Assembly: GCA_964359165.1 (NCBI GenBank) | Contig: CAYHRV010000001.1 | Coordinates: forward strand, 28,080 to 92,079 | Direction of reading: 5' to 3' | Length of the DNA stretch: 64,000 nt | Source of the DNA: an uncultured Elusimicrobia bacterium | GTDB lineage: Bacteria > Elusimicrobiota > Elusimicrobia > UBA1565 | Part shown: in pieces, positions 24,919 through 45,848 of the stretch | Numbering within the stretch: the first letter of the stretch is position 1 | Layout of the letters: every line of letters begins with the position of its first letter | The notes under the pieces: generated by a model | What the model saw: only the letters and a program-made list of their open reading frames with translations | Databases searched by the model: none | Told to the model about the DNA's origin: nothing | Translations under genes and position numbers: made by a program

Positions 24919-25904
24919 CGGTAGCGCACCTTCTCGACCCGACCCCCGGCCGAAGACCGTCGCGCGGCGTCGCAGACGGCGAGCGCGCGCACGCCGTCCT
25001 CGGCGGTAGCGAGCGTCCCGCGACTCCCGCCCGAGACCGCGCGCAGGAAGGCCTTGGCCTGTCGCTTGAGCCTCTCGTCGGCGGGGGCGCGGTCCGTCCA
25101 GACGCGGGGCTTGCCGCCTCCAGGGAGCAGGGTCACCGTCTGCGCGAGAGCGTCCCACTCGAGCGTCCCGTGCTCGCCGCAGGCCAGGATCCCGCGGCGC
25201 GTCGGACGGGTCAGATAGTCGACGTGCACCGAGACTGGGAAGCCCTTCGGCGCGAGCCAATGGAGCTCGGCCAGTTCGTCGGAGGCGATGTCCAGGCGCC
25301 CGAGGTTCAGCACGCGGCCCGAGACCGCCCGCGGCCAGCCGAACAGCCAGCCCGCGTAGTCGATCTCGTGGATCAGGTCCCGCAGGACCCCGCCCTCGGC
25401 GGCGCGGGCGCTGTAGGTGCCGCTGTAGGGGCGCGAGCGCCGCCAGTCCGACAGGTAGGAGCGGCATTCGGCGCTGACCGAATGCAGGCGGCCCAGCCGC
25501 GGCAACAGCGAGCGGAAGCGCAGCAGCGAGGGCTCGAAGCGCAGCGTGCAGCCGACGAAGACGCGCCGCCCGCGGCGCCGCGCCGCCCGCGCCAGACGCC
25601 GCGCCGAGGGGGCGTCGACGCCGAGAGGCTTCTCGACCAGGGCGTCGAGCCCGAGCGAGACGGCGCGCAGGCCGTCAGCAACGTGCCGGCCGGTACTCGT
25701 CGCGATCACGCAGGCGCGGGCGCGGGCCGCGGCGAGCGAGGGGAGGGCCGGGACCCCGTCACGCTCGAGCTCCGCGAGGCGCGCGGGACGGGCGGGGACG
25801 GCGATCGGTTCGACGCCGGGCAAGGAGGAGAGGGCGCGCAGGTGCTTGAGGCCGAAGTTCCCGGCGCCGACGACGGCGACGCGCATCAGTCGCGTCCGCC
25901 TCAA
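24915..25904 (-). CDS. Gfo/Idh/MocA-family oxidoreductase
   Basis: MRVAVVGAGNFGLKHL Rossmann N-terminus. Start is either TTG 25904 (TTGA overlap) or ATG 25886. Confidence 0.8.
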   Translation of the reverse strand: MRRTRLMRVAVVGAGNFGLKHLRALSSLPGVEPIAVPARPARLAELERDGVPALPSLAAARARACVIATSTGRHVADGLRAVSLGLDALVEKPLGVDAPSARRLARAARRRGRRVFVGCTLRFEPSLLRFRSLLPRLGRLHSVSAECRSYLSDWRRSRPYSGTYSARAAEGGVLRDLIHEIDYAGWLFGWPRAVSGRVLNLGRLDIASDELAELHWLAPKGFPVSVHVDYLTRPTRRGILACGEHGTLEWDALAQTVTLLPGGGKPRVWTDRAPADERLKRQAKAFLRAVSGGSRGTLATAEDGVRALAVCDAARRSSAGGRVEKVRYR

Positions 25905-28063
25905 TTGGAGAGAGCGTACCGGACGAACATGTCCTGCTCGGGACCCTCGGCGGCCTGCTCTCCGCCGCGGACCCGGATCTTGCGGAAGAGGCTCTCGACG
26001 TTGCTGACGCGCGTGACGATCTTGCTCAGGGCGTTCGTGTGCGTTCCGTAGCGCTTGAACTGGTCGTTGCGCGCGATGAGCTGCTCCCGGGTGTAGCCGA
26101 ATTCGTAGACGATGGGCTTCTCAGCGGCGAAGGCCGACAGCGGCGTCCCGCGCGGGGCTTTGCGCCACATCAGGATGTCGTAGGGGCTCTCCATCGAGAT
26201 CGGGGAGAGGTCGGCGTCGGGCTTCAGGAGCCCGTCGAGCCTCTTCCTGATGAACTCGCCGAGGGCCGAGAGCTCGGCGGCCGCCTTGCGGCGCGCCTCG
26301 GCGTCGGCGACGCGCTCGGAGTATATCTCGAGGCAGATCCGGTTGAGGAAATCGATCCAATCCCCGACACAGTAGGCGAGGCTGGCAGCCTTGTACTTGT
26401 AGATCAGGTTGCCGCCGGCCTCCCCTTTCAGCAGCTTCTCGTAGTTGTCGTCCTTTCGGTAGTGCGCGACGAGCTCGTCCTCGGACTCCCACAACTCGCC
26501 CTTCGTTTCGCCGAGATAGTCCTCCATCACCTTGCGCACGCTCGCGGGGGCGCGGTCGAGCGAGTCATAGAGGCGCATGATCAGGTCGAAGGTCTTGATC
26601 CCGCAGGCCTCGGCGTGGCGGAAGAACTCGTGGAACGGCCGGCTATTGTGCAGGATCTCGACCATCAGGCAGAGGCCGCGGATCCAGAGGTAGTCCTCGA
26701 ACGGCATGTCCTTGCTGGCGATCCCCGCCTCCTCGTAGTCGAAGACGCGCACGCCGTCGTACTGGCCGAAGTTCAGCGGGACGATCCGGAAGCGGCCCTG
26801 GTATTGGTGCTTGGCGCGGAATTCAGGCTCCTGGAACTCGGTTCCGTAGAGCAGCAGCAGGGTGTTCGAGCAGATGCTCGATACCTCGGCGTCGAGCATC
26901 TGCTCGATGCCGCGCGTGAAGGTCTTCTTGTTCTCGCCGGGCAGGCCGATGATGACCTCGCCCTTGGTCGCGCGGCCCTGGTCGTTGAGCTCGTGAGTGA
27001 CTGCCGCGTAGTGGTCGAGCTTGATGTTCTGCCGGTGGACGTTCTTGAGGACCTCGGGGTCCATCGACTGCACCGACATGTTGACCGAGAAAGTCGTGCC
27101 GAGCAGGCGCGTGATGTCGATCACGAGCTCCTTGTTGTTCTTGCCGGTCGTCGACATGATGTGGCGCGGCCAGCCGAACTCCTTCTGGGTCTTCAGGAAC
27201 TCCTCGCAGATCTCGCGGTCGCGCTGGTACATCGCGAAGTTCGTGTCGGCGATGTGCAGGTTCGTGATGCCGAGCTTGTGCATGCGCGGCGCGATGTAGT
27301 CGATCTCCGCCTTGATGCGGTCGAGCGAGAACTTGTTGACCTTGTTGAAGTAGCCGTTGCCGGTGTGGCAGAAGGTGCACAGGAACGGGCAGCCGCGGTT
27401 GGTCTCGAGGAAGGGCGTCAGGCGTCCGTCGAAGAATGTGTCGAGCATGCCGTTTAAGTAAGGCGACGGGATGTCGTCGAGCTCCCGGATGCGCGGAAGG
27501 CTCGGGCCCGTGACGAGGACCGGCTCGGGCGAGCGCCTCGTGTCCGGCACGAGGTAGACGAGTCCGGGGAGCAGGGTCCCGTCGAGGACGCTCTCGCGCA
27601 GGCGCGCGGCTCCGCCCTCGCGCTTGGCGAGGACCCGCCCCAGCAGCTCGGCGAAACTGGCCTCGGCCTCGAGCTCGACGTAGACGTCGGTGTTCGGGCG
27701 GCTCAGCAGGAAGCCGCGCTGCAGCGGCCCGCGGTGCGGGAAATTGGTCCCGCCCTGGACCGTGATGGTTTCGGGGCGGCGCTCCTTGGCGACGCCCGCG
27801 ACCCTCTCCGCGAGGCGGCTGTTCCACGAGTAGTTGCTCAGCGCGATCACGTCGGGTGGATCGGCCTTGATCGCGTCGATGGCGGTCTGCGGGTACTTGA
27901 ACAGCGAGACCTCGATCGCGTCACCATGGATCTTCTTCGCGTAGGAGCCGATGAAGCCGATGTTGATCGGGATAGTGTCCGCCACGAGGACGATTGTGTC
28001 GTGTGTGAGGTCGCAGAGGAAGACTCGAAGGGGGCGATGGGAGGCCATGGCGAAGCGACCCAT
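25901..28063 (-). CDS. B12-binding-domain (class B) radical SAM enzyme, 720 aa
   Basis: N-terminal cobalamin-domain-like segment (VFLCDL...DVIALSNYSWN). Radical SAM cluster motif RGCPFLCTFCH (CxxxCxxC). Confidence 0.85.
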   Translation of the reverse strand: MGRFAMASHRPLRVFLCDLTHDTIVLVADTIPINIGFIGSYAKKIHGDAIEVSLFKYPQTAIDAIKADPPDVIALSNYSWNSRLAERVAGVAKERRPETITVQGGTNFPHRGPLQRGFLLSRPNTDVYVELEAEASFAELLGRVLAKREGGAARLRESVLDGTLLPGLVYLVPDTRRSPEPVLVTGPSLPRIRELDDIPSPYLNGMLDTFFDGRLTPFLETNRGCPFLCTFCHTGNGYFNKVNKFSLDRIKAEIDYIAPRMHKLGITNLHIADTNFAMYQRDREICEEFLKTQKEFGWPRHIMSTTGKNNKELVIDITRLLGTTFSVNMSVQSMDPEVLKNVHRQNIKLDHYAAVTHELNDQGRATKGEVIIGLPGENKKTFTRGIEQMLDAEVSSICSNTLLLLYGTEFQEPEFRAKHQYQGRFRIVPLNFGQYDGVRVFDYEEAGIASKDMPFEDYLWIRGLCLMVEILHNSRPFHEFFRHAEACGIKTFDLIMRLYDSLDRAPASVRKVMEDYLGETKGELWESEDELVAHYRKDDNYEKLLKGEAGGNLIYKYKAASLAYCVGDWIDFLNRICLEIYSERVADAEARRKAAAELSALGEFIRKRLDGLLKPDADLSPISMESPYDILMWRKAPRGTPLSAFAAEKPIVYEFGYTREQLIARNDQFKRYGTHTNALSKIVTRVSNVESLFRKIRVRGGEQAAEGPEQDMFVRYALSN

Positions 28064-28073
28064 TATAGCATTC

Positions 28074-29123
28074 CTACGATGATGCTTCGATGATGCGGGC
28101 GATCCGGCGGGCGCTGTGGCGGTTGGCCGCCTTCAGGCGCTGAAAGCCCCGCAGGACCCGGGCCCGCGATGCCCGGTCGCCGAGGGCCCGCGCCAGGGCG
28201 GGACCGAGCTCGGAGCGGCTGCGGGCGAGGAAAGCCAGGCCTTCCCCGCACCAGGGCGGCGTCGCTTCGCCCGTGGACCCGATATGGCGGTCCAACCCCA
28301 AGCCGGGCAGTAGGATGAAAAGGCCCGGGACGCCCGCGTACCCGGCCTCGACCGCCAAGGTCGAGAACTGGGTGCCCACGAGGTCGGCGGCTCGCGCCAA
28401 GGCGATTGGGTCGCTCTCGGCGGTGACATCGATGACCTTGATGCCGGGGGTCCTGACCGCGTCGGCCGGAGTGTAGGGGTGCGAGCGGTAGAGCAGCGTC
28501 GCCCGATGCTTCCGGAGATGGGGGAGCAGAGCCTTGAGGGTCCCGGCATTCCCCATCCGGTTGGGCTGCCCCGCCCACAGGACCGCCGGCTCGTCGCCGA
28601 TCCCGAGGCGGGCCCTGAGGGCCGTTCGCTCGGCGCGCGTCGGCGGGGACTGGACGCAGGCGTAGCGCGGGTTCCCCGTGACATGTACCGAGGAGGGCCT
28701 CAGCCCCCGCCTGAGGTGGAGAGCCTTGGCGCTCGGGAACTCCACGAAAAGGCCGTCCGCGCGCGGCTGATCCGGAGTGTAGTTGCCGGGATAATCCTCG
28801 ATCGCGTAGACCGGCAGGCCGGCCTTTGCCGCCGCCGTCGAGAGCCGTGTTTCGAGGTTGTCGCGGACGGGGGTCTTGGAGACGCCCCGCACGAGGGCCC
28901 GATACCCGCCGCGCCGGAGGAAGTCGAGGCACCCTGCCGCGCCGCTCAGGGCGGGGCTCGGGTGCAGGAAGGGCAGCCCATGGCGGCGCCGCTCCTTGGC
29001 CGCCTCCCCGTCGAGAAGGAAGGCGCAGGCCGAGGCGCCGAATTCCCGTTCCAGGGGAGCGAGCCCGATGTAGGGGCCCCGATAGAGCGCGACCAGGAGG
29101 TAGCGGGGGCCTCGCGCGCTCAT
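28074..29123 (-). CDS. Uncharacterised GT-B-like protein (candidate CMP-sugar-dependent transferase)
   Basis: LLYRSHPYT followed by AVEAGYAGVPGLFIL. ATGA overlap with the sulfotransferase-like gene. Confidence 0.45.
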   Translation of the reverse strand: MSARGPRYLLVALYRGPYIGLAPLEREFGASACAFLLDGEAAKERRRHGLPFLHPSPALSGAAGCLDFLRRGGYRALVRGVSKTPVRDNLETRLSTAAAKAGLPVYAIEDYPGNYTPDQPRADGLFVEFPSAKALHLRRGLRPSSVHVTGNPRYACVQSPPTRAERTALRARLGIGDEPAVLWAGQPNRMGNAGTLKALLPHLRKHRATLLYRSHPYTPADAVRTPGIKVIDVTAESDPIALARAADLVGTQFSTLAVEAGYAGVPGLFILLPGLGLDRHIGSTGEATPPWCGEGLAFLARSRSELGPALARALGDRASRARVLRGFQRLKAANRHSARRIARIIEASS

Positions 29124-30145
29124 CCCAACATCTCGGCCGCCAGCGGCGGGTAGCCCAGGCGCTCCTGCAGCCGGCTGGCTTGACGCAGGAGGCTCGACGG
29201 GACGCCGGACCAGTCCGCAGGCGCAAGCGGCTCGCGCGGCCTGGCCGGAATCTCACGGGCGAGCTGCCGGGTCCGCGCTGTCGGCGAGGCGCCGAGCAAG
29301 CGCCCGAAGCGGGACGCCGCCGCCAGAGGGTCCATGGCGAACGATTCGTAGTCGAGCCTCCAATAGTCGCCGGCGCGCGCCCTGGGCAGCCTCTCGCTTG
29401 CCTCCAAGCCGCCCCGATGCATCATCAGCCAGTAGAAGAGCCGACGGCCGAGGACGGGCAAGGCGAGGAATTCCCGGGTCCTGCCGCGCGGGACCCACCA
29501 GGGGATCGCGAGCGTCGGGCGCCCCGGCCCCGGCTTGAAATCATAATGAAGGTCGTTCTCCCAGGGTTTCTTTAGCTGGGCATCGGTCAAGAGCGCTGAG
29601 CGCCGGACCCAATCCCTGTCCAGCACGACGGGGAGGGCCTGCCGCACCATGTGGATGATCAGGGCCTGGGGCAACGCAGCCTTCAGGAAGTCGAGGCAAG
29701 GGTCCGTCTGGGTGACGGAAATGACGAGCACGGAGCGGTTTTTCTCGACGTGCCTGACCACGTCCGAGCGGCTCTTGAGGCCGTTGAGCCTGCGCGCGAT
29801 CTCGCCGCGGCTCTTGAAGCGCCAGATGCTCGACCAGTCCGAGCGCCTGAAGTTGGCGTTGCGCAGCAGTATCCTGTCGTTGAAGGACTCCTCGATGAAG
29901 GCCTGCAGCATCGTGGCCGCCGCGGGACGGCCGATCAGGCCCGCCTTCTGCATGACCGGCAGGGCCAGGGCGGTCCAGGGCTCCTCGATGAATTCGACGC
30001 TGCGCATCGACCCAAGCAACAGGCCCAGGGTCGTCTTGCCGGTGCGGCAGGCGCCGGTGATGAAGACGAGCCGCGGGACCTTCAGGCGCGAGAAGGCATG
30101 GAAGTGGTGGCGCGGCCGCGGGGAGCCGCGGCCGTCAGCGGCCAT
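29120..30145 (-). CDS. Sulfotransferase-like P-loop protein
   Basis: 5'-PSB-like loop FITGACRTGKTTLG. HMVRQALPVVLD fits a 3'-PB region. C-terminal RLDYESFAMDPLAAASRFGRLLG resembles the YEDL..dP....FLG tail of bacterial sulfotransferases. Confidence 0.6.
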   Translation of the reverse strand: MAADGRGSPRPRHHFHAFSRLKVPRLVFITGACRTGKTTLGLLLGSMRSVEFIEEPWTALALPVMQKAGLIGRPAAATMLQAFIEESFNDRILLRNANFRRSDWSSIWRFKSRGEIARRLNGLKSRSDVVRHVEKNRSVLVISVTQTDPCLDFLKAALPQALIIHMVRQALPVVLDRDWVRRSALLTDAQLKKPWENDLHYDFKPGPGRPTLAIPWWVPRGRTREFLALPVLGRRLFYWLMMHRGGLEASERLPRARAGDYWRLDYESFAMDPLAAASRFGRLLGASPTARTRQLAREIPARPREPLAPADWSGVPSSLLRQASRLQERLGYPPLAAEMLG

Positions 30146-36260: not shown

Positions 36261-37531
36261 AGTCGACTCAGACACCGGCCGAGCTCGATGCCAAGTACGG
36301 CCTGCCGGCCGATGTGAAGTTCTGCCGTCTTTGCGTGATGTCCAACCAGAAGCCCAACGCGGCCGTCGAGTACGCGCACACGAAGGACTCGAAGAAGGCG
36401 ACGGTGCACTTCGACGCCGACGGGGTGTGCGACGCCTGCCGCTACATGGAGAAGAAGCGCAAGACGATCGACTGGGACGCGCGCGACGCCGAGCTGCGCG
36501 CCCTCTGCGAGCGCTACCGCAAGACGGACGGCTCCTATGACTGCCTCGTGCCGGGCTCGGGCGGCAAGGACAGCTTCTACGCCGCGCATGTCCTGAAGTA
36601 CAAGTATGGGATGCACCCGCTGACCGTCACCTGGGCGCCGCACATCTACACCGACTGGGGCTGGAAGAACCAGCAGGCCTGGATCCACGCCGGCTTCGAC
36701 AACCTCCTCTGCACCCCGAACGGGCGGGTCCACCGGCTGCTGACCCGCCTCGCCGTCGAGAACCTCTACCATCCCTTCCAGCCCTTCATCATCGGCCAGA
36801 AGGCCCTGGCCCCGAAGATGGCCGCGCGCTACGAGATCCCGCTCGTCTTCTACGGCGAGTACGAGGCCGAGTACGGCAACCCGATCGCCGAGACGAGATC
36901 CGCCCAGAGGGACTGGTCGTATTTCACGGTCCCCGATAAGAGCAAGATCTTCCTCGGCGGCGCCGCGCTCAAGGATCTAGAGGACAATTACGGCCTCGAG
37001 CCCAACGACTTCGCGCCCTACCTGCCGGGGAACCCGGAGGACCTCAAGCGCGTCGGCGTGCAGGTGCACTACCTGGGCTATTACCTCAAGTGGCACCCGC
37101 AGAGCTGCTATTACTACGCGGTCGAGCACGGCGGCTTCCAAGCCTCGCCCGAGCGGACGCCCGGGACCTACAGCAAGTACAACAGCATCGACGACCGGAT
37201 GGATGACCTCTTCTACTACACGACCTTCATCAAGTTCGGGATCGGCCGCGCGACCTACGATGCCGCCCAGGAGATCCGCTCCGGCGACATCACGCGCGAG
37301 GAGGGCGTCGCGCTGGTGCGGCGCTTCGACGGCGAGTGGCCGGCGCGCTTTGACGAGCAGCTCTTCACCTACCTCAGCATGCCCCCCAAGGAGTTCCCGA
37401 CGGCCCACAAGATGTTCGAGTCGCCGGTGATGACGCGCGTGCGCTTCGACGCGCTCGCCGACCGCTTCCGGTCGCCGCACCTCTGGGAGAAGAAAGGGGC
37501 GGAGTGGGTCCTCCGCCACCGCGTCAGCTAG
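36257..37531 (+). CDS. N-acetyl-sugar amidotransferase (PP-loop, WbpG/PseA-like)
   Basis: Zn-ribbon-like CRLC...CDAC, then PP-loop CLVPGSGGKDS. Confidence 0.8.
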   Translation: MKSTQTPAELDAKYGLPADVKFCRLCVMSNQKPNAAVEYAHTKDSKKATVHFDADGVCDACRYMEKKRKTIDWDARDAELRALCERYRKTDGSYDCLVPGSGGKDSFYAAHVLKYKYGMHPLTVTWAPHIYTDWGWKNQQAWIHAGFDNLLCTPNGRVHRLLTRLAVENLYHPFQPFIIGQKALAPKMAARYEIPLVFYGEYEAEYGNPIAETRSAQRDWSYFTVPDKSKIFLGGAALKDLEDNYGLEPNDFAPYLPGNPEDLKRVGVQVHYLGYYLKWHPQSCYYYAVEHGGFQASPERTPGTYSKYNSIDDRMDDLFYYTTFIKFGIGRATYDAAQEIRSGDITREEGVALVRRFDGEWPARFDEQLFTYLSMPPKEFPTAHKMFESPVMTRVRFDALADRFRSPHLWEKKGAEWVLRHRVS

Positions 37532-39188
37532 TCCGCGCCTCTAGGAAGTCCCGCATCAGCCGGCCGAGCCGGTCCGCGGCCGCCGGCTCCTCGCCGGAGA
37601 CGTCCTTCCTGAAGTCCCGCGAGCGGAAGAGTTCGGTCTTGGCGGGGTCGGCGTCGAAGCGGCCCTCGTCGTCGACCTTCCCGCCGGTCTCCAGGTAGAA
37701 GTCGTAGTCCCGGTCCTTGACCGTCGCCTTGTAGGTCGCGCCGGGGAAGAACGATTCGCATACGATATGGTCGCGCGCGGCGGGACCCCCGAAGACCGCG
37801 GGCAGCCGGCCGTCCAGCCGCGCCCCGGCCTCGACCCCGGCGAAATGCAGCAGAGCCGGCAGCACGTCGATGTTCTGGACGAGCTCGGGGCAGCTCCCCG
37901 CGGGGACCCCGCCGCCGCGCAGCAGCCACGGCACGTGGGTGCGCTCGCGCGAGAGGATGTGCGGGTCGCCGGTGATGTAGCTCGTTCCATGGTCGGCGAC
38001 CAGGGCCACCAGTATCTCGTCCTCCGAGTAGCGGTCCTGCAGCAGCGAGAAGACCTGGCTCAGGTAGAAATCGACCTTGTTGAGCTCCCGCAGGCAGCGC
38101 TCGGTCTTCGGAGGGTCGGCCTCGACGGCCGGAACCGACTTCTTCTTGGACTGCGTGTAGTCGTGGGCCTGCAGCGTGTAGCGCAGTTGGTCCCCGAGGT
38201 CGGGCACCGCGTTGATCGTGTGGTGGAGATCGAAGTAGCTCAGCCACGCGAAGGTGTCGCGCCGCGGGAAGGCGCGCATCTGGTCGAAGAAGGCGTAGTT
38301 GATCTCCTTCAAAGACGCCTGGCGCTTGTAGACCGTGCGGTCGAAGCCGCGCGCGTAGCCGTAGGAGGGGGTCTTCCTCCAGTTGCCGCAGGCCTGGAAG
38401 GTCAGGTAGCCGTCATCTTGGAAGAGCTCGCTCGCGATCGGGTAGTCGCCGAAGGAGACGTCGCGCTCGGCGTGGAACATCCGGTGGCGCGCGACGCGCA
38501 AGCCCGTGTGGAGGCTCGCCAGGCCCGGCAGAGACCACTCCGAGGGCACGTGGCAGTCGGTAAACATCGTCCCCTTTGCGAAGAAGCGGTGGATGTTCGG
38601 CGCCGCCTCCTCGAGCGGGTGGAGCTTGAAGAGCTCCTGCGTGAGCCCGTCCACGAAGAGGCAGAGCACGAGGCGCTTCCTGCGTGGCCGGGCCTGGGTC
38701 AGCGGAATCGGGCGCCCGAGGACGAGGTCGCAGGAGGAGGAGAGCTCGATCTCGGTCTTGTCCTTGAAGCAAAGATAGTAGAAGCGCTCGGCGACCTGGC
38801 CGCCGAGGGCGTGCTCCCGGCCGTTGGCCTTGACCTTGATTGAGTAGCCCTTCTCACGGTCGAGCTTGCCGGGCTTGATCAGCCGGTAGGGGAGGGCGGC
38901 GTCCGTCACGGTCAGCCGCTGGACCTCGCCGGCCCGGACGCGGCGCCCCCAAAGGAGCTCAAGTTGGGGCGCGAATGGGTCGAGATAGTAGGGGGGGTTC
39001 TGGAGCTCGTTGTAGAAGCCCGACCAGAAGCCCTGCAGGCCGTCCGGGCTGAACAGGGGCTTGAAGAGATAGTTCTGCCAGGCCCTGCCGAGCGGGAAAG
39101 CGGTGTTGCCTCGGTTCCAGTTGTAGCGCTTGCGGTAGAAGAGGTCGAGCCCCACCGAGAACAGGGCCTCGAGGACGGGGTTGGCCAT
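37524..39188 (-). CDS. Alkaline-phosphatase-superfamily (sulfatase/phosphotransferase-like) protein
   Basis: LVLCLFVDGLTQ (metal/nucleophile region with Thr, no CxPxR) and LVADHGTSY. Confidence 0.6.
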   Translation of the reverse strand: MANPVLEALFSVGLDLFYRKRYNWNRGNTAFPLGRAWQNYLFKPLFSPDGLQGFWSGFYNELQNPPYYLDPFAPQLELLWGRRVRAGEVQRLTVTDAALPYRLIKPGKLDREKGYSIKVKANGREHALGGQVAERFYYLCFKDKTEIELSSSCDLVLGRPIPLTQARPRRKRLVLCLFVDGLTQELFKLHPLEEAAPNIHRFFAKGTMFTDCHVPSEWSLPGLASLHTGLRVARHRMFHAERDVSFGDYPIASELFQDDGYLTFQACGNWRKTPSYGYARGFDRTVYKRQASLKEINYAFFDQMRAFPRRDTFAWLSYFDLHHTINAVPDLGDQLRYTLQAHDYTQSKKKSVPAVEADPPKTERCLRELNKVDFYLSQVFSLLQDRYSEDEILVALVADHGTSYITGDPHILSRERTHVPWLLRGGGVPAGSCPELVQNIDVLPALLHFAGVEAGARLDGRLPAVFGGPAARDHIVCESFFPGATYKATVKDRDYDFYLETGGKVDDEGRFDADPAKTELFRSRDFRKDVSGEEPAAADRLGRLMRDFLEARTS

Positions 39189-39736
39189 CAGGGCTTGCGC
39201 GCCGCGAGGCGCTCGGCCAGGAAGGCGAAGAGGCGACCGGCCGACGCCTCGGGCGTCTCGCCGCCGTCCCCGGAGCGGACGACGAAGTCAGGGGAGCGAG
39301 GAGGTTCGTACGGAGGGCCGGTCGGCGTGCCGATCACGCCCTCGAGCTCGCGGCGCGAGGCCTTGGCGTAGAGCCCCTTCACGTCGCGCCGCGCGGCCGT
39401 CGCGAGGTCGGCGTCGCAGTGGACCTCGTAGAAGCCCTTGCCGAGCCTGGCCCGGGCCTTCGCGCGCGAGCGGGCGAAGGGCGAGATAATGGGGACCAGG
39501 ATCACGTCGCATGTCCCCCGCAGCGCGGCGCAGCGCTCGGCGATCAGCTCGTTGTTCTTCTCGATGTCGGCGGGCGTGAAGCCGAGCGGCGGGTCGTGGA
39601 GCCGGCGCACCTCGTCGCCGTCGAGGACCTCGACTTCGCGGCCCGCGCCCTCGAGCCTGCGGCTCAGCAGGCCCGCCACCGTGGATTTCCCGGAGCCCGA
39701 GAGGCCGGTGAACCAGACGACGAGGGCGCGCCTCAT
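39188..39736 (-). CDS. cysC: Adenylyl-sulfate (APS) kinase
   Basis: Real start ATG 39736 (ATGA overlap). VWFTGLSGSGKST P-loop. The 693-aa track ORF is an artefactual extension. Confidence 0.9.
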   Translation of the reverse strand: MRRALVVWFTGLSGSGKSTVAGLLSRRLEGAGREVEVLDGDEVRRLHDPPLGFTPADIEKNNELIAERCAALRGTCDVILVPIISPFARSRAKARARLGKGFYEVHCDADLATAARRDVKGLYAKASRRELEGVIGTPTGPPYEPPRSPDFVVRSGDGGETPEASAGRLFAFLAERLAARKP

Positions 39737-41895
39737 TCGACGAAGATCGGCCGCTTGGAGGCGAGCTCCCGGCGGAGCATGTCCTGGACCGGCTTGCGCA
39801 TGAACCAGTCCGGCAAGGCGCGCCCGGACCGGAGGGCCTCCCGGACCTGGGTGCCGCTGATCGTCTCGCGGCCGCCGCCGTTGAGCGCCTCGTAGCGCCC
39901 GCTTTTCGGGTCGTAGCCGATCGCGTCGAAGAAGACCGGGGCGACGCCCAAGTCGCCGAGGCTCTCGAAGAGACGCTGGTTGTCGGCCGGCTTGTAGAAG
40001 TCGGCCACCCCGGTGTGGTCGCGGCCGATGATGAAGTGGGAGCAGCCCATGTTCTTGCGGCACAGCGCGGTGAATACGGCCTCGCGGGGGCCCGCGTAGC
40101 GCGAGTAGGCGGCGAAGCTGCCGACCAGGACCTTGCCCTTTGGGTAGAGGCCGAAATTGAGCATCAGTTGGTAGCTCTGCATGATCGGGCCGGGGAGGAA
40201 GTCCCCGGCCTTCTTGGGCCCGATCGCGGGCGTCACGTAAAGGCCGTCGGCGTGCGTCGCCTCGATGGCGAAGAGCTGGATGTGCTCGTGCACGCGGTGG
40301 ATCGGGTTGCGGGTGTGGAAGCCCACGACGCGGCTCCAGCCCTTGTGCGCGAAGATGTAGCGCGACTGCCAGGGCGTCAGCTCGTAGGGGCGGTGCGGGG
40401 AGGCGCGCCGCTCGATCAGGGTCACCTCGCCGGCCAGGAAGGACTCGCCGCCGCTCCGAAGCTTCGCGACGCCGGGGTGCTCGGCGGAGTCGGTCCCGAA
40501 CCACTTCTTGGCGATCTCCGAGAGCCGGACCGGGTAGACCTCGCGGACGTCGAGCAGGGCGCGCGGCCTGCCTTCGGCGTCCTCGAGGCGCAGGCGCTCG
40601 CCGCGACCGGTCCGCGCCGCGGCCTCGCGGTCGACCTGCAGGACGACGGGTAGAGTCCACGGCGTGCCGTCCGGCAGGCGGTTCCCGGAGAGCACGCTCT
40701 CGAGGGTCCTGCGGTCCATGAAGCCCGTCAGCGGCGAGTAGGTCCCGAAGGCGATCTGCTCGCAGTCCATCAGGTCCGTCTCGCCGACCTTGAGGCCCGT
40801 GAGCTTGCCGAGGCTCGCGAGGTCGGCGGGGCCGGCCTCGCGGTGGACGAGCCTGCCTCCGTGGGGCAGGACGAGCTGTGAGGTCAGCTCCGAGGAGAGA
40901 TGCGGGGCCTCGTCGGGGCTCGCAGCCTCGTGCTCGCGGACGATCTTGACGATCATGCTCGCGCACTGGACCGGGAAGGAGCCGATCGCCGTCTCGGCGG
41001 CCAAGACCAGGCCGTCCGCCCCGTCGGCCAGGGTGTTGAAGACGTCGTTGACCTCGGCGCGGGTCGGGCTGGCGGAGGAGGTCATCGACTCGAGAAGGTT
41101 CGTCGCGACGTAGACCTTGACGCCCCGCGCCTTGCCGCGCTTGATGATGGACTTCTGGGCGCGCGGGATCCGCTCGAGCGGGATCTGGCGCGAGAGGTCG
41201 CCGCGGTCGATCAGCAGGGCGTCGGACTTCTTCGCGATGGCATCGAGGTTCGCGAGGCCGTTGCGGCACTCGATCTTGGAGATCAAGAAGGCGTCCTTCC
41301 CGAAGACCCGGCGCACTTCGTCGACGTCGGAGGCCCGGTTCGCGAAGGACAGGGCCACATGCTTCAAGCCCAGCTCCTTGCCGAGCTCCAGGGCCAGCCG
41401 GTCCTTCCGGGTCAGGGCCGGCAGGTCGACGTCTCGCTCCAGCGTCACGGCCTTGTTCGAGCCGATGACGCCCCCACTGAGGGCCCGGAGCGTCGCGAGG
41501 CCGGGGTGCGTCTCGATCACCTGGAAGAGCACGGAATCGAAGTCGACGGTCAGGAAATCCTCGACCGCCAAGAGATCGACGACGTCCTCGGGATAGAGGT
41601 TGAGGTCGTGCGAGTCGCCGGGGACGGGTTCCGCGTGGACGCGCAGCAGGCCGTTCTCGCGGATCGCGACCTTGCCGTCCACCAGGCTCCCGGTGCGGAT
41701 CTGCGCGCCCTCGGTGTCGAGGCAGACGGGCACCTTGGTGCGGCCCTGCAGGTAGCGGATGATCCCCGCCAGGTCCTCGAAGCGCGTGTGGGAGAGGTTG
41801 ATCCGGAAGAGGCTCGCCCCAAGCGCCTCCAGGCGCGCGACGACCCGGTCGTTGAGCGAGGAAGGGCCCAGCGTGCAGAGCAGTTCCTTGGTCAC
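39733..41895 (-). CDS. Fusion protein: pyruvate-kinase-like barrel (no PK C-terminal domain) plus sulfate adenylyltransferase (ATP sulfurylase)
   Basis: N-terminal half has LGPSS, RINLSHT, LDTEGAQIRTG, ISKIEC, IDRGDLS, NLLESM, PTRAEVNDV, LAAETA. C-terminal half has FHTRNPIHRVHEHI and GRDHTGV. Single uninterrupted frame. Confidence 0.8.
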   Translation of the reverse strand: MTKELLCTLGPSSLNDRVVARLEALGASLFRINLSHTRFEDLAGIIRYLQGRTKVPVCLDTEGAQIRTGSLVDGKVAIRENGLLRVHAEPVPGDSHDLNLYPEDVVDLLAVEDFLTVDFDSVLFQVIETHPGLATLRALSGGVIGSNKAVTLERDVDLPALTRKDRLALELGKELGLKHVALSFANRASDVDEVRRVFGKDAFLISKIECRNGLANLDAIAKKSDALLIDRGDLSRQIPLERIPRAQKSIIKRGKARGVKVYVATNLLESMTSSASPTRAEVNDVFNTLADGADGLVLAAETAIGSFPVQCASMIVKIVREHEAASPDEAPHLSSELTSQLVLPHGGRLVHREAGPADLASLGKLTGLKVGETDLMDCEQIAFGTYSPLTGFMDRRTLESVLSGNRLPDGTPWTLPVVLQVDREAAARTGRGERLRLEDAEGRPRALLDVREVYPVRLSEIAKKWFGTDSAEHPGVAKLRSGGESFLAGEVTLIERRASPHRPYELTPWQSRYIFAHKGWSRVVGFHTRNPIHRVHEHIQLFAIEATHADGLYVTPAIGPKKAGDFLPGPIMQSYQLMLNFGLYPKGKVLVGSFAAYSRYAGPREAVFTALCRKNMGCSHFIIGRDHTGVADFYKPADNQRLFESLGDLGVAPVFFDAIGYDPKSGRYEALNGGGRETISGTQVREALRSGRALPDWFMRKPVQDMLRRELASKRPIFVE

Positions 41896-42611
41896 GGGCG
41901 GAGCTCGAGCTCCTTGACGGCCTCCGGGCTCGCGAAGCAGAAGGTGTTGGTCTTGCCGTGCACGTAATACGAGTACTCGAGCAGGGTGAAGCCCTGGCGC
42001 TCGAACTCGTAGCGCCAGATCCTGGGATAGGGGAGCGCGGCGGGCTGGAGCAGAAGCATGCAGAAGCGGCGCGTCACGCGGCAGATCTCCCGGACCAGCG
42101 GGAAATCGGGAGCGATGAACTCGATCGAGGTGCCGCGCGAGATCGCGACGTCGAAGCGCTTATCCGCGACCTTCGGGAAGAAGGTCTCGAGCGGGCTGGC
42201 GAGAAGCTTGGCGTCGGCCTGGATATGGGGGGCGTAGGTCTTCGAGAAGGCGATCGCGTTGGCGTTGATGTCGACGCCCTGGAGGTCCCGGTAGCCCCGG
42301 TTCCAGAGCTCGACGAGGTTGCGCCCAGAGTTGCAGCAGAGGTCGAGGACGCTCGCGTCCTTGCCGGTGTAGCGCTCGACGCAGTCGGCGAGCAGGCGGG
42401 TCTTCTTGTCGAGCTCGGTGTATTGCTCCGGCCGGTGCATCGGGGAGTCGTTGGTCTTCACGGACCAATCGGCCTGGAAGCGGCTGCGGCGCCGGCTGTA
42501 GTAGGGCGAGAGCAGGGAGTGGGCGGTGGTCGGGAGCAGCGAGTTGAATGCGCGCAGGAAGCGGGCTCTTGGGGTCATAGGGGGATTGTGCAGCCTCGGC
42601 GGGGTGCCCAT
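41892..42611 (-). CDS. Class I SAM-dependent methyltransferase
   Basis: VLDLCCNSGRN SAM motif. Start may be the second Met (MTPRARF). Confidence 0.7.
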   Translation of the reverse strand: MGTPPRLHNPPMTPRARFLRAFNSLLPTTAHSLLSPYYSRRRSRFQADWSVKTNDSPMHRPEQYTELDKKTRLLADCVERYTGKDASVLDLCCNSGRNLVELWNRGYRDLQGVDINANAIAFSKTYAPHIQADAKLLASPLETFFPKVADKRFDVAISRGTSIEFIAPDFPLVREICRVTRRFCMLLLQPAALPYPRIWRYEFERQGFTLLEYSYYVHGKTNTFCFASPEAVKELELRP

Positions 42612-42655
42612 TTTTGATTATATCAATAATCGGAAGTATCTATTCACGGGACTGA

Positions 42656-44092
42656 TTAGTAAATCTCGAAGAGTTTACTGTAAGTGACCGCGGGATGAGT
42701 CAATCCCAGCCTTTCCCGCGATGACTCGCAATCCACGTCTTTCTTTGATACGGCGGCGAGAAATTCGGCGGAAAGATCTTGGTGGCCGATCGTGGCGGCG
42801 CCCTTTATTCCCCGCAGGTCGATATATTGAAGGTAATCAGGATGTGTCAGTTGAACCACGGGGCGTCCGAGCAGGAGAGCCTCTTCCAGCACCGTCGTGC
42901 TCATCCCGATGACAGCAATGGCTCTCGCCAGGGCATCTTTCAATGAGACGCCGGCGGAGACATCCATTAAGCCCTTGCGGAGACATGATTTCATCCATTT
43001 CTTGTCGGCGCGACTGACTTCCGCGTGAGGATGGAGCCGCAGCCTGACGCGCATCGGTGTCGCGGAATTCTCAATAAGCTTTCGCAGGCTCTCGATCAGA
43101 ACATCGTTATCAAAGGCGGCCAAGGCTCCCACAAACAGGTAGCAATCGCCTTTTACTCCCCTAGCAGGGGCCGCATCCTTCCAATGCGAGAAACGGCAGC
43201 TGCACCCCAGAAGGAATTTTGTGGTGCCGTAGTGAGGCGCCAGCAGTTCGATCGCATCATTACTGAATGCGTACATGACATCCGGCAGCATCAGCCCGTT
43301 CTTCCTTTCTTCGGGGCAGCAGAAATACCACCTTTTGCCGGATGAGATCGATGCGTGCTGAACGGCGTATCCCCGCGCATTATATTTGGAAGCGACCCGC
43401 CATACCACGCGCGCATGGGAGTGCATCTCATGGATGCAGCCGATCTTTTTAATGCCGTATTTCTCCACGACCTCCGATAGGGCACGTTCGAGATGGCAAG
43501 CATAAAGCCACTGAAGACTGCCCGCCCATTCAAGCCACAACAACAACAGCAGCATCTTGTCGACAAAGCCGCCTTTCACCCTGATGAATGCCCGGATTCC
43601 TCCCCAGATCATGTTCGACACGATGAACAGTTTGCGGCTGAAGGAGATTCCCTTGATGTCTTTTTCGTTCTTCCCGCAGGTGCCGGCGGGTCCGCAAACA
43701 AAGAGCCCATCATCTTTATCGGTGCGCACATACGATGTCTTATATGCCCCGGTCGAGGTTTCAGAGCCGCAGGTGGACGGCACAACCAGAAGAGTGCCGC
43801 TGATTTTTCCATACACCGCATATTTCAGCGGTTTGAAATTTATCGCCAACTTGACCGCGCCTTTTATGAAGCCGTAGAGAGTCCCAGCCGCGAGATTTAG
43901 AAGAAGCGCAGCCCGGTGCTTCTCCCTGTAGCCGTCATGCCACAGTCGGCACACGTCCGGATTTCGGGCGCTCAGAGGGGAAGCGCATATGAGCGAGGTC
44001 GCGCCCTCATCCGCGGCGCAGGAGGCGGCAGCGAGGAATTCCACGGCCAGATGCTCGATGGGATGAATGAACGAATTCTCGTCGCGCTTCAC
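42656..44092 (-). CDS. Uncharacterised GT-B-like protein (candidate CMP-ulosonic-acid transferase); start uncertain
   Basis: RLRLHPHAEV followed by MSTTVLEEALLLGRPVVQL. Last gene of the lower-G+C operon. GTG 44092 is the first start candidate downstream of the neighbouring stop. Confidence 0.45.
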   Translation of the reverse strand: MKRDENSFIHPIEHLAVEFLAAASCAADEGATSLICASPLSARNPDVCRLWHDGYREKHRAALLLNLAAGTLYGFIKGAVKLAINFKPLKYAVYGKISGTLLVVPSTCGSETSTGAYKTSYVRTDKDDGLFVCGPAGTCGKNEKDIKGISFSRKLFIVSNMIWGGIRAFIRVKGGFVDKMLLLLLWLEWAGSLQWLYACHLERALSEVVEKYGIKKIGCIHEMHSHARVVWRVASKYNARGYAVQHASISSGKRWYFCCPEERKNGLMLPDVMYAFSNDAIELLAPHYGTTKFLLGCSCRFSHWKDAAPARGVKGDCYLFVGALAAFDNDVLIESLRKLIENSATPMRVRLRLHPHAEVSRADKKWMKSCLRKGLMDVSAGVSLKDALARAIAVIGMSTTVLEEALLLGRPVVQLTHPDYLQYIDLRGIKGAATIGHQDLSAEFLAAVSKKDVDCESSRERLGLTHPAVTYSKLFEIY

Positions 44093-44123
44093 GGTGCGCC
44101 AAGAGGCTGCGCGCGAGGGATCA

Positions 44124-45826: not shown

Positions 45827-45848
45827 GGTGATGTTCGTGGTCTCAGTC

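What the first reader, a model, noticed from the sequence alone, without database searches (positions are those of the whole stretch)
39733..41895. Pyruvate-kinase-like domain fused to ATP sulfurylase, coupled to APS kinase
Seen in sequence: one uninterrupted 720-codon frame. Residues about 1-340 carry most pyruvate-kinase hallmarks: LGPSS, RINLSHT, LDTEGAQIRTG, ISKIEC with the catalytic-region Lys and Glu, IDRGDLS, NLLESM, PTRAEVNDV and LAAETA. The PK C-terminal regulatory domain is absent. Residues about 350-720 are a complete ATP sulfurylase (FHTRNPIHRVHEHI, GRDHTGV). The gene is joined by GTGA and ATGA overlaps to a methyltransferase upstream and to cysC downstream. Established: the ATP sulfurylase equilibrium strongly disfavours APS and is normally pulled by a GTPase (CysN), pyrophosphatase or APS kinase. 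Inference: a fused PEP-dependent phosphotransfer domain could regenerate ATP or remove ADP in cis, giving a PEP-driven PAPS factory dedicated to glycan sulfation. I cannot recall a characterised enzyme with this architecture, and I cannot check from here whether it is already catalogued.
Basis: partly seen in the sequence, partly recalled or inferred. Interest (0 to 1): 0.75.

Follow-up and report, generated by a model that had tools for sequence, protein, structure and literature searches.

The report
Pyruvate-kinase-like domain fused to ATP sulfurylase
A real, widely conserved but uncharacterised bacterial enzyme joins a trimmed pyruvate-kinase-like domain to the enzyme that activates sulfate, most likely so that phosphoenolpyruvate helps drive production of the sulfate donor PAPS for decorating cell-surface sugars.

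Summary
An uninterrupted 720-codon gene lies on the minus strand at 39733-41895. It has a PK barrel (A+B domains, no C domain), a PUA_2 domain and an ATP-sulfurylase domain. It is translationally coupled to a methyltransferase, an APS-kinase-family gene and an alkaline-phosphatase-superfamily gene, inside a 50-kb surface-glycan cluster that also holds a sulfotransferase.

It is not an assembly artefact. At least 60 clusters at 50% identity share the architecture. Relatives show other arrangements: PK-SAT-APSK, PK-APSK, SAT-PK and PK+PK_C-SAT. In metagenome loci, 59 of 59 determinable sulfurylases of this type are PK-fused.

The PK-like part belongs to a distinct clade without the C domain. This clade is also common as a stand-alone gene next to APS-kinase genes. 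It keeps every catalytic and metal ligand.

Three substitutions co-vary. PK Ala292 becomes Asp, the sulfurylase QXRN Gln becomes His, and the sulfate-binding Arg of the kinase becomes Ile.

Best reading (inferred, untested): a PAPS-synthesis module in which the PK-like domain uses PEP to turn ADP back into ATP. This would relieve the APS-kinase dead-end E·ADP·APS complex. A changed substrate, giving a PAPS analogue, is not excluded. I found no paper describing a natural fusion of this kind. Verdict: new variant of a known kind.

The parts
39733..41895 (-). 720-aa PK-like / PUA_2 / ATP-sulfurylase fusion gene (GTG start)
   Evidence: ORF; Pfam; NCBIfam; homologues; AF2 model with pLDDT 88
40966..41886 (-). 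Pyruvate-kinase barrel (A+B domains), residues 4-310; there is no PK_C domain
   Evidence: PF00224 E 1e-64. Superposes on PKM2 / rabbit PK A+B domains over about 340 columns at rmsd about 2.5 A. Catalytic residues R31, N33, S35, D60, R67, K148, K207, E209, D233 and T265 are invariant.
40879..40914 (-). Disordered inter-domain linker, residues 328-339
   Evidence: pLDDT below 50 in the AF2 model; variable length and sequence in alignment A1
40408..40866 (-). PUA_2 (ATP-sulfurylase N-terminal) domain, residues 344-496
   Evidence: PF14306 E 2e-38
39769..40386 (-). ATP-sulfurylase catalytic domain, residues 504-709. Motifs are FH527TRN (canonical FQTRN), H533xxH536, GPKKAGD and GRDHTGV.
   Evidence: PF01747 E 8e-63. 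Residue-level alignment to 8a8d and 1v47. TM 0.92 to 8a8d.
39188..39736 (-). APS-kinase-family gene (182 aa), ATGA-overlapped with the fusion. It is the Ile subtype: ADIEKNNELIA replaces the canonical DRxENIRR.
   Evidence: PF01583 2e-39. TIGR00455 141.5 bits against a cut-off of 138.7. Alignments.
37524..39188 (-). 554-aa sulfatase / alkaline-phosphatase-superfamily protein whose start overlaps the kinase stop. Its role is unknown.
   Evidence: PF00884 2e-14 and PF01663 7e-10. Only weak PDB relatives. The same family lies near the fusion in L003, L083, L088, L097, L098, L103, L140 and L156.
41892..42611 (-). Class-I SAM methyltransferase (239 aa), GTGA-overlapped with the fusion start
   Evidence: PF13649 and PF08241; junction
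29120..30145 (-). Candidate PAPS-dependent sulfotransferase (341 aa) in the same glycan cluster
   Evidence: PF13469 Sulfotransfer_3, E 1e-8, above the gathering score

Best explanation
The gene encodes the sulfate-activating enzyme of a dedicated PAPS-supply module for sulfating a surface glycan that contains nonulosonic acid.

Proposed steps:
- The C-terminal PUA_2 + ATP-sulfurylase half makes APS from ATP and sulfate.
- The overlapping downstream APS-kinase-family protein phosphorylates APS to PAPS and releases ADP.
- The N-terminal PK-like domain (A+B domains only, probably unregulated) transfers phosphate from PEP to that ADP.
- This regenerates ATP in place and removes ADP, so the kinase is not trapped in its dead-end E·ADP·APS complex and APS does not build up to inhibit the sulfurylase.
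- The net reaction is ATP + PEP + sulfate -> PAPS + PPi + pyruvate.
- Sulfotransferases in the cluster then use the PAPS.

Shown here: the architecture, the conservation of catalytic residues, the recurrent fusion and adjacency with sulfate-activation genes, and the glycan and sulfotransferase context.

Inferred: all of the enzymology, including PEP/ADP use and the reason for the coupling.
For: (1) Domains and fold.

(2) PK ligands are kept. R31/N33/S35/H36, D60, R67, K148, K207/E209, D233, T265 and E301 are invariant in 120 fused and 120 stand-alone members.

(3) Rosetta-stone evidence links the PK-like domain to sulfate activation:
- PK-PUA2-ATPS-APSK in P0270, P0276 and L007.
- PK-APSK in P0331.
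- Reverse-order SAT-PK in P0332.
- Full PK+PK_C-SAT in P0308.

(4) 59 of 59 determinable His-type sulfurylases in metagenome loci are PK-fused.

(5) Stand-alone PK-like genes are directly followed by APS_kinase genes in L012, L013, P0180 and P0157.

(6) Neighbours of the fusion:
- cysC lies directly downstream in 14 of 56 loci.
- Sulfotransfer_1/3 is the commonest informative neighbour.
- TauE and CysTWA sulfate-transport genes lie nearby in Methyloversatilis.

(7) The window has a Sulfotransfer_3 gene and NeuB/NeuC/CMP-sugar genes.

(8) Published experiment: PAPSS1 without PK/PEP accumulates ADP and yields practically no PAPS, and adding PK restores it. [quoted passage not shown]
Against: - No activity was measured.
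- In vivo the ATP/ADP ratio is already held high, so a private PK helps only if ADP is handed over locally. Nothing here shows a complex with the kinase.
- The PK-like clade differs invariantly from canonical PK at several positions: K114 to E, E117 to Q, A292 to D, G297 to S, Q328 to N. It scores below the curated PK cut-off, 243 against 306 bits.
- The sulfurylase has His where the strictly conserved sulfate-binding Gln sits (PMC3779200).
- The partner kinase has Ile where the sulfate-binding Arg497 sits (PMC4373884).
- The three changes co-vary. This could mean an altered ligand rather than ordinary ADP/APS.
- Locus L123 has a canonical CysC as well as the Ile-type kinase, which suggests the two are not redundant.
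- About three quarters of fusion loci lack an adjacent APS kinase.
Confidence: 0.5

Rival explanations
1. The module makes or recycles something other than ordinary PAPS, and the three co-varying changes reflect one altered ligand seen by all three enzymes. Possible versions: a PAPS analogue with a different nucleotide or anion, parallel to the 3'-phospho-CDP-amidate donor of the Campylobacter MeOPN pathway. Or a PAP-to-PAPS salvage loop, in which the kinase makes 3'-phospho-ADP, the PK-like domain makes 3'-phospho-ATP, and the His-type sulfurylase adds sulfate.
For: - The triad is near-invariant and co-occurs: PK DRGDL in 112/113, sulfurylase His in 76/80, and every fused or adjacent kinase is Ile-type.
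- Gln and Arg497 both contact the sulfate of APS, and Arg497 also contacts adenine N1.
- Both halves of the fusion fall below the curated equivalog cut-offs, and the kinase only just passes.
- L123 keeps a canonical CysC next to the Ile-type kinase.
- Alkaline-phosphatase-superfamily proteins recur nearby, and one (P0314) is fused to the PK-sulfurylase.
Against: - All other sulfurylase ligands are canonical: RN, HxxH, GxxKxxD and the GRD loop.
- His can still donate an H-bond to sulfate.
- Arg483 and the LGF phenylalanine of the kinase are kept.
- PAPS-type sulfotransferases, TauE and sulfate ABC-transporter genes are the typical neighbours.
- Stand-alone PK-like genes pair with a kinase subtype that keeps the Arg.
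- No alternative anion-forming enzyme is consistently present.
Confidence: 0.2
2. The PK-like domain really serves the sugar pathway, and its fusion to the sulfurylase is incidental gene-order fusion. For example, it could handle PEP or pyruvate for NeuB-type synthases or HpcH-type aldolases in nonulosonic-acid clusters.
For: PK-like genes, fused or alone, very often sit in clusters with NeuB, CTP_transf_3, 2-Hacid_dh, HpcH_HpaI and HAD genes. Examples are the window, L013, P0180, L084, L086, L088 and L089.
Against: - Independent fusions in both orders, and with APS kinase alone, point specifically at sulfate activation.
- Methyloversatilis has the fusion followed only by sulfotransferases, TauE and an HD protein, with no nonulosonic-acid genes.
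- 59/59 fusion with His-type sulfurylase.
- PEP and pyruvate are abundant metabolites that need no private supply.
Confidence: 0.1
3. The PK-like domain is a non-catalytic module. It could be a PEP or energy-charge sensor, or an oligomerisation scaffold, that regulates the sulfurylase.
For: - It lacks the C domain that gives canonical PK its tetramer and allostery.
- The helix A-alpha-6' segment (GDLGVEI), which takes part in PK allostery (PMC4448766), is rewritten to GDLSRQ(I/V).
Against: Every catalytic, Mg2+, K+ and phosphate-binding residue is invariant across about 240 sequences that are only 36-60% identical. That pattern is expected for an active enzyme, not for a sensor.
Confidence: 0.07
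4. Sequencing or assembly artefact: two genes are joined by a frameshift or a chimeric contig.
For: None in this window. One relative (L008, a long-read MAG) shows the fusion split by an apparent frameshift.
Against: The same continuous architecture appears in hundreds of independent assemblies, including complete genomes such as the Methyloversatilis discipulorum 4.25-Mb contig. The alignment runs continuously through the linker. GC3 is uniform.
Confidence: 0.01

Closest known systems
Homo-oligomeric (Sat-type) ATP sulfurylase, e.g. Methanothermococcus thermolithotrophicus 8A8D and Thermus thermophilus 1V47
   Same: It has the PUA_2 + ATP-sulfurylase fold (TM 0.92, 37-40% identity). The RN, HxxH, GxxKxxD and GRD motifs are present.
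   Different: It carries an N-terminal 330-residue PK-like domain. The QXRN Gln is His, and GRDHAG is GRDHTG. It scores below the TIGR00339 and NF003166 curated cut-offs.
Bifunctional PAPS synthases (human PAPSS1/2; Aquifex aeolicus SAT/APS kinase, 2GKS)
   Same: They put the sulfate-activation steps in one polypeptide or operon. Relatives of this gene (P0270, P0276, L007) also carry the APS kinase in the same chain.
   Different: No known PAPS synthase contains a PK domain. Here the kinase is a separate, overlapping gene of an Ile subtype.
Pyruvate kinase (EC 2.7.1.40; PykF, PykA, PKM)
   Same: It has the A+B domains, and all catalytic, Mg2+ and K+ ligands are kept. It is about 32-35% identical to solved PKs.
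   Different: There is no C-terminal allosteric/tetramerisation domain. It has a clade-specific signature (E62, Q65, D230, S235, R236, N266, AAETAIG). It scores below the TIGR01064 cut-off. Its genomic home is glycan clusters, not glycolysis.
CysDN, the GTPase-coupled ATP sulfurylase
   Same: The concept is the same: a second nucleotide- or phosphoryl-handling partner is attached to overcome the unfavourable APS equilibrium (established knowledge; described in PMC4373884).
   Different: The fold is unrelated (CysD is PAPS-reductase-like, CysN is an EF-Tu-like GTPase). CysDN couples to GTP hydrolysis at the sulfurylase step. Here the coupling would be PEP-dependent ADP removal at the kinase step.
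Engineered in-vitro PAPS cascades (ATP sulfurylase + APS kinase + pyrophosphatase + PK/PEP)
   Same: They use the same set of activities. PK/PEP is required for useful PAPS yield because it removes ADP (PMC9885120).
   Different: Those are separate commercial enzymes mixed in a tube. This would be a natural, genetically fused version.
Campylobacter jejuni MeOPN pathway (Cj1415-Cj1418)
   Same: From my own memory, not checked here: an APS-kinase homologue 3'-phosphorylates a nucleotide-activated non-sulfate group to make a PAPS-like donor for capsule decoration.
   Different: That pathway uses a PPDK-like glutamine kinase and a cytidylyltransferase, not a PK barrel or a sulfurylase. It serves only as an analogy for the rival reading.

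Membership tests
Pyruvate kinase (PF00224 / TIGR01064, EC 2.7.1.40) | (beta/alpha)8 A domain with inserted B-domain lid | tested here: met
   PF00224 at residues 4-310, E 1e-64. The AF2 model superposes on PKM2 / rabbit PK over about 340 columns at rmsd about 2.5 A.
Pyruvate kinase (PF00224 / TIGR01064, EC 2.7.1.40) | Catalytic Lys/Thr, Mg2+ ligands Glu/Asp, K+ site Asn/Ser/Asp/Thr, phosphate-binding Arg (rabbit R72, N74, S76, D112, R119, K269, E271, D295, T327; numbering from my own knowledge) | tested here: met
   R31, N33, S35, D60, R67, K207, E209, D233 and T265 are invariant in 240 clade members.
Pyruvate kinase (PF00224 / TIGR01064, EC 2.7.1.40) | C-terminal alpha/beta (PK_C, PF02887) allosteric/tetramer domain | tested here: not met
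   No PK_C hit. The PK part ends at about residue 327 and is followed by a disordered linker.
Pyruvate kinase (PF00224 / TIGR01064, EC 2.7.1.40) | Score above the curated equivalog cut-off | tested here: not met
   TIGR01064 gives 243.2 bits against a cut-off of 306.4. All NCBIfam PK models are below their cut-offs.
Pyruvate kinase (PF00224 / TIGR01064, EC 2.7.1.40) | Canonical active-site-region motifs LDTKGPEIR / (M)VARGDLG / ATQMLES | tested here: not met
   The clade has LDTEGAQIR / IDRGDLSR / ATNLLES. DRGDL is present in 112/113 of the nearest representatives. Solved PKs all have ARGDLG.
Pyruvate kinase (PF00224 / TIGR01064, EC 2.7.1.40) | PEP + ADP -> pyruvate + ATP activity | not testable with these tools
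   Needs an enzyme assay.
Sat-type ATP sulfurylase (PF14306 + PF01747 / TIGR00339) | PUA_2 + ATP-sulfurylase domains and fold | tested here: met
   TM 0.92 and rmsd 2.2 A to 8a8d.
Sat-type ATP sulfurylase (PF14306 + PF01747 / TIGR00339) | HxxH, the RN of QXRN, the GxxKxxD mobile loop and the GRD loop | tested here: met
   R529, N530, H533, H536, G559/K562/D565, G624, R625 and H627 are invariant or nearly so.
Sat-type ATP sulfurylase (PF14306 + PF01747 / TIGR00339) | Gln of QXRN, which H-bonds the sulfate of APS and is described as strictly conserved | tested here: not met
   His527 is invariant in 27/27. His is present in 76/80 of the nearest representatives. The role of the Gln is from PMC3779200.
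Sat-type ATP sulfurylase (PF14306 + PF01747 / TIGR00339) | Score above the curated cut-off | tested here: not met
   TIGR00339 gives 285.2 against 322.95. NF003166 gives 345.5 against 387.
APS kinase (PF01583 / TIGR00455), for the overlapping downstream gene | P-loop, the LDGD catalytic Asp, the first sulfate/phosphate Arg (M. tuberculosis Arg483), and the LGF stacking Phe | tested here: met
   GLSGSGKST, LDGDEVR and LGF are present. TIGR00455 gives 141.5 bits against 138.7.
APS kinase (PF01583 / TIGR00455), for the overlapping downstream gene | Second conserved Arg (M. tuberculosis Arg497), which binds the APS sulfate and adenine N1 | tested here: not met
   It is Ile in the window kinase and in all kinases fused to or directly downstream of the fusion. 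Its role is from PMC4373884.
Bifunctional PAPS synthase | ATP sulfurylase and APS kinase in one polypeptide | tested here: not met
   In the window they are separate genes with an ATGA overlap. The feature is met in relatives P0270, P0276 and L007.

The most novel reading that the evidence does not exclude
The co-varying triad is PK Ala292 to Asp, sulfurylase Gln to His, and kinase Arg497 to Ile. Under this reading it marks a separate nucleotide-sulfate (or sulfate-like) donor system rather than ordinary PAPS synthesis. One version is a PEP-driven salvage loop that rebuilds PAPS directly from PAP through 3'-phospho-ADP and 3'-phospho-ATP. Another is synthesis of a PAPS analogue with a different nucleotide or anion, reserved for glycan decoration and kept apart from assimilatory sulfur metabolism.
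Probability: 0.15. Interest if true: 0.9.

Novelty: new variant of a known kind. Interest (0 to 1): 0.6.

Why it matters
Bacterial glycan sulfation is chemically widespread. Sulfate and nonulosonic acids co-occur in environmental extracellular polymers, but the genes behind sulfated-polymer production "are not well known" (PMC10483923).

This fusion, and the stand-alone PK-like + APS-kinase pair, could serve as an easily recognised genomic marker of dedicated glycan-sulfation modules across many phyla.

If the PK-like domain does recycle ADP with PEP, it would be a third natural solution to the unfavourable energetics and kinetics of sulfate activation. The other two are the CysN GTPase and pyrophosphatase/APS-kinase pull. 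It would also be a ready-made one-protein catalyst for PAPS production, which is a bottleneck in enzymatic synthesis of sulfated glycans (PMC9885120).

It also defines a large clade of C-domain-less 'pyruvate kinases' that annotation pipelines name simply 'pyruvate kinase', a label that could be misread as glycolytic.

Tried and rejected
1. Assembly or frameshift artefact. Rejected by recurrence across assemblies.

2. The second 720-aa ORF at 25901..28063 as a paralogue. It is a B12-binding radical-SAM protein, and the equal length is coincidence.

3. The 'ETAKG' Lys-to-Ile change as proof of a dead PK. PKM2 K367M is reported to lack pyruvate kinase activity (PMC4737187). However, the solved bacterial PKs 7oo1 and 2e28 have Ser and Ala at that position, so the change is not diagnostic.

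4. Homology between the window's sulfatase-family protein and the Phosphodiest domain fused in P0314. BLASTP gives E 0.39, so they are related only at superfamily level.

5. The first genome scan used the whole-protein alignment and was swamped by ordinary PKs through the PTRAEVND pattern. I repeated it on metagenomes with a sulfurylase-only alignment.

6. Literature searches for a natural PK-sulfurylase fusion found nothing relevant. The library is limited to open-access papers and bioRxiv, so this is not proof of absence.

7. I could not obtain a residue-level list of PK nucleotide contacts. The role of Ala292 remains unassigned.


Full report
**1. Observation**

The 720-codon frame is real and lies at the stated coordinates, but on the minus strand (39733..41895, GTG start). 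The plus-strand reading is full of stops. GC3 is 0.96, which marks it as the coding frame in this roughly 69% GC region.

Pfam assigns three domains and no PK_C domain:
- PK barrel, residues 4-310 (E 1e-64)
- PUA_2, residues 344-496 (2e-38)
- ATP-sulfurylase, residues 504-709 (8e-63)

The GTGA overlap with the upstream methyltransferase (41892..42611) and the ATGA overlap with the downstream APS-kinase-family gene (39188..39736) are both present. That gene's stop overlaps the start of a 554-aa sulfatase / alkaline-phosphatase-superfamily gene (37524..39188). The four genes are therefore translationally coupled.

An AlphaFold2 model built on 27 homologues is confident (mean pLDDT 88, pTM 0.79). 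It has a disordered linker at residues 328-339. The C-half superposes on solved ATP sulfurylases (8a8d, TM 0.92). The N-half superposes on PK A+B domains (about 340 columns, rmsd about 2.5 A). No solved chain contains both.

**2. Not an artefact, and not rare**

A search of the 5.8-billion-protein collection returned more than 120 clusters at 90% identity with the same three Pfam domains. They are 57-73% identical to the query. Named sources include Bacteroidota, Verrucomicrobiota, Alphaproteobacteria, Methyloversatilis, Caldilineaceae, Anaerolineae and Omnitrophica. The sources call them only 'pyruvate kinase', 'ATP sulfurylase' or 'sulfate adenylyltransferase'.

An exhaustive phmmer search of 1.84 billion representatives at 50% identity found about 60 or more full-length representatives, down to about 36% identity.

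Proteins of unusual length in that list show other arrangements:

| Protein(s) | Arrangement |
|---|---|
| P0270, P0276 | PK-PUA_2-ATPS-APS_kinase (also L007) |
| P0331 | PK-APS_kinase |
| P0308 | Full PK with PK_C, then SAT |
| P0332 | Reverse order, SAT-PK |
| P0314 | Phosphodiest-PK-SAT |
| P0329 | PK-CBS |

I then scanned metagenome contigs with a sulfurylase-only alignment. Of 69 loci where this sulfurylase type was called, 59 were fused to the PK-like domain. Ten were cut by the contig end. None was a complete sulfurylase without PK.

**3. Context**

The window is one long surface-glycan cluster (about 6.8-56 kb) flanked by shikimate-pathway genes. It contains:
- NeuB, a NeuC-type epimerase, a CBS-nucleotidyltransferase and CTP_transf_3
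- WbuX/HisH/HisF-like amidotransferase genes
- DegT aminotransferases and several methyltransferases
- a B12 radical-SAM protein
- an HpcH aldolase and a 2-hydroxyacid dehydrogenase
- a Sulfotransfer_3 candidate at 29120..30145

Pfam-annotated contexts of homologues repeat this picture:

| Locus | Context of the fusion |
|---|---|
| L084 | Fusion -> APS kinase -> Sulfotransfer_1, in a nonulosonic-acid cluster |
| L089 | Fusion -> APS kinase, with NeuB/NeuC/DegT nearby |
| L081 (Methyloversatilis) | Fusion -> Sulfotransfer_3 -> TauE -> HD -> Sulfotransfer_3, with a CysTWA-type sulfate ABC transporter nearby |
| L085 | Sulfotransfer_3 -> fusion -> P-loop protein |
| L083, L088 | Fusion near sulfatase-family proteins |

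Across the metagenome loci, cysC lies directly downstream in 14 of 56 loci that have room for it. Sulfotransferases are the commonest informative neighbour: eight loci have a locally labelled sulfotransferase within four genes. Among 138 previously unlabelled neighbours, seven were Sulfotransfer_3 and four were Sulfotransfer_1.

**4. The PK-like half is a distinct clade**

The genome scan also found stand-alone proteins of about 337 aa that are 46-50% identical to the N-half. Ordinary PKs are only about 32% identical. These stand-alone proteins occur in Desulfobacula, unclassified Proteobacteria and Thermoplasmata archaea.

Searching with the Desulfobacula protein returned 120 clusters of PK-barrel-only proteins. 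In L012, L013, P0180 and P0157 the stand-alone gene is immediately followed, often with overlap, by an APS_kinase-family gene. These sit in glycan clusters very like the window's, with NeuB, B12-rSAM, 2-Hacid_dh, HpcH, CTP_transf_3 and HAD genes.

Fused and stand-alone members share one signature. In window numbering it is E62, A64, Q65, D230, S235, R236, N266, N283, T288 and AAETAIG. Canonical PKs have K, P, E, A, G, V, Q, G/S, A and SGETAKG at these positions.

The catalytic and metal residues are invariant in all 240 sequences: R31, N33, S35, H36, D60, R67, K148, K207, E209, D233, T265 and E301.

The most general mark is DRGDL, with Asp at canonical Ala292 (rabbit numbering, from my own knowledge). 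It is present in 112 of 113 nearest representatives, including the reverse-order and PK_C-containing fusions. All solved PKs aligned here have ARGDLG.

The Lys-to-Ile change in 'ETAKG' is not diagnostic. PKM2 K367M is reported to lack pyruvate kinase activity (PMC4737187), but solved bacterial PKs carry Ser or Ala at that position.

The PK half scores below NCBI's curated PK cut-off, 243 against 306 bits.

**5. The sulfurylase and the kinase also deviate, at sulfate-contacting residues**

[quoted passage not shown] Here the Gln is His527. It is invariant in 27 of 27 fusion proteins and present in 76 of 80 nearest representatives. A canonical APSK-SAT protein in the same hit list has FQTRN. All other sulfurylase motifs are canonical. 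The half scores below the curated cut-offs, 285 against 323 bits.

In APS kinases two conserved arginines hold the phosphosulfate. In M. tuberculosis CysC, Arg497 binds the sulfate group and adenine N1 (PMC4373884). The window's kinase has Ile there: ADIEKNNELIA against the canonical DRxENIRR. So does every kinase fused to the PK-like domain or directly downstream of the fusion.

Locus L123 carries two kinases:
- a canonical CysC upstream of the fusion, scoring 249 bits on TIGR00455
- an Ile-type kinase downstream, scoring 150 bits against the cut-off of 138.7

The window's own kinase scores 141.5 bits. The kinases next to stand-alone PK-like genes form a second subtype that keeps the Arg.

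So PK(Asp), SAT(His) and APSK(Ile) behave as a co-varying triad. I cannot explain it from sequence alone.

**6. Most likely mechanism**

The fusion permutations are classic Rosetta-stone evidence that the PK-like activity works together with sulfate activation. The tie appears closest with the APS-kinase step, which is the only ADP-producing step.

The simplest chemistry is the canonical one. PEP + ADP gives ATP + pyruvate. The net reaction is then ATP + PEP + sulfate -> PAPS + PPi + pyruvate.

There is direct experimental precedent for why this helps. Human PAPSS1 in vitro accumulates ADP and makes practically no PAPS unless PK/PEP is added. [quoted passage not shown]

On this reading, loss of the C domain gives an unregulated PK. 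The Arg-to-Ile change could weaken APS binding to E·ADP. That last point is my inference only.

I put this at about 0.5. The first-level claim, a real and conserved sulfate-activation enzyme serving glycan sulfation, is much firmer (about 0.85).

**7. Rivals**

- (a) The triad reflects an altered ligand. This could be a PAPS analogue with another nucleotide or anion, or a PAP-to-PAPS salvage loop via 3'-phospho-ADP and 3'-phospho-ATP. For it: the triad, the sub-threshold curated scores and the L123 kinase pair. Against it: canonical remaining motifs and the sulfotransferase, TauE and sulfate-transporter neighbours. About 0.2.
- (b) The PK-like domain serves the nonulosonic-acid or aldolase sugar pathway, and the fusion is incidental. 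About 0.1. Against it: fusions with APS kinase alone and in both orders, and Methyloversatilis, whose locus lacks nonulosonic-acid genes.
- (c) A non-catalytic sensor or scaffold. About 0.07. Against it: invariant catalytic residues.
- (d) Artefact. About 0.01.

**8. Comparison with what is known, and novelty**

It works like a PAPS synthase with an added energy-coupling partner. In concept this parallels CysDN, and it matches the enzyme set of engineered PAPS cascades.

At Pfam level it is a member of the PK and ATP-sulfurylase families. It fails equivalog-level tests for both: the curated cut-offs, the absent C domain, Ala292 to Asp, and Gln to His.

I found no paper describing a natural PK-sulfurylase fusion. 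That search covers only open-access literature and bioRxiv.

I class it as a new variant of a known kind. It is catalogued automatically, and I found no paper or curated model that describes it.

It matters as a likely marker and engine of bacterial glycan sulfation. The genetics of that process are poorly known, although sulfate and nonulosonic acids co-occur chemically in environmental biofilm polymers (PMC10483923).

Noticed in passing
window 42000-52000: This block has clearly lower G+C (55-59% against about 69% elsewhere). It holds a TIGR04326-like surface-carbohydrate protein, 2-Hacid_dh, CTP_transf_3, two SDRs, an HpcH/HpaI aldolase, a transaldolase/FSA, SIS, a methyltransferase and GFO. 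It may be a horizontally acquired sugar-acid module. The same gene set accompanies stand-alone PK-like + APS-kinase pairs elsewhere (P0180; L013).
   Followed up: partly
window 37524-39188 (-): The sulfatase-family protein coupled to the kinase is cytoplasmic-looking and very divergent. Its best PDB matches have E about 1e-6 (VP1736, phosphonate monoester hydrolases). By eye it has S-L-P-G-L where sulfatases carry the C/S-x-P-x-R formylglycine motif. It may therefore be a Ser/Thr-nucleophile transferase or phosphatase rather than a sulfatase. Its role is unknown; candidates are a PAP phosphatase, a pyrophosphatase or a transferase.
   Followed up: partly
L123:2668-3297 and L123:5732-6286: One metagenome locus has a canonical CysC (DRAENIRR, 249 bits on TIGR00455) immediately upstream of the fusion and an Ile-subtype kinase (150 bits) immediately downstream. 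This suggests the two kinases are not redundant.
   Followed up: partly
L012:1153-2694; L013:9980-11591; L014-L019: There is a large family of stand-alone, C-domain-less PK-barrel proteins of about 337 aa, auto-annotated 'pyruvate kinase'. In bacteria and in Thermoplasmata archaea they sit in glycan clusters. They are often followed by a second APS-kinase subtype (GPTSxGKTT ... SDRQRVV) and a HAD hydrolase.
   Followed up: partly
P0314 (1151 aa), P0332 (725 aa), P0308 (859 aa), P0329 (478 aa): Unusual relatives were found: Phosphodiest-PK-SAT, reverse-order SAT-PK, a full PK with PK_C fused to SAT, and PK-CBS. Where the motifs could be matched, they carry DRGDL in the PK part and His in any sulfurylase part; P0314's RGDL motif was not matched, and P0329 has no sulfurylase part.
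   Followed up: partly
L139, L147, L150, L154, L158, L165 and others (genes flanking the fusion): Nine of the 138 previously unlabelled immediate neighbours of the fusion are Na_H_Exchanger-family membrane proteins. A 270-aa P-loop 'AAA_33' protein with no NCBIfam match replaces cysC in the Caldilineae-type loci. These may be an ion or sulfate transporter and a very divergent kinase.
   Followed up: no
window 25901-28063 (-): A second ORF of exactly 720 aa is a B12-binding radical-SAM protein, not a paralogue of the fusion. It is 32% identical over 664 aa to a protein in the Desulfobacula cluster L013.
   Followed up: yes
L008:9971-12152: In a long-read Microthrixaceae MAG the fusion is split into two overlapping ORFs. 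This is probably a sequencing frameshift or a pseudogene.
   Followed up: no
window 44124-45362 (-) and 45053-45877 (-): The mechanically listed 412-aa 2-Hacid_dh ORF overlaps the CTP_transf_3 gene by about 300 bp. The Pfam match starts at residue 122, so the true start is probably near 45000.
   Followed up: no
window 2144-4054 (+) and 11090-13465 (+): Near the left end of the window there is a second, larger sulfatase-family protein (636 aa; the Sulfatase domain starts at residue 273, so it may be LtaS/phosphoglycerol-transferase-like). There is also a TPR-Ser/Thr protein kinase.
   Followed up: no
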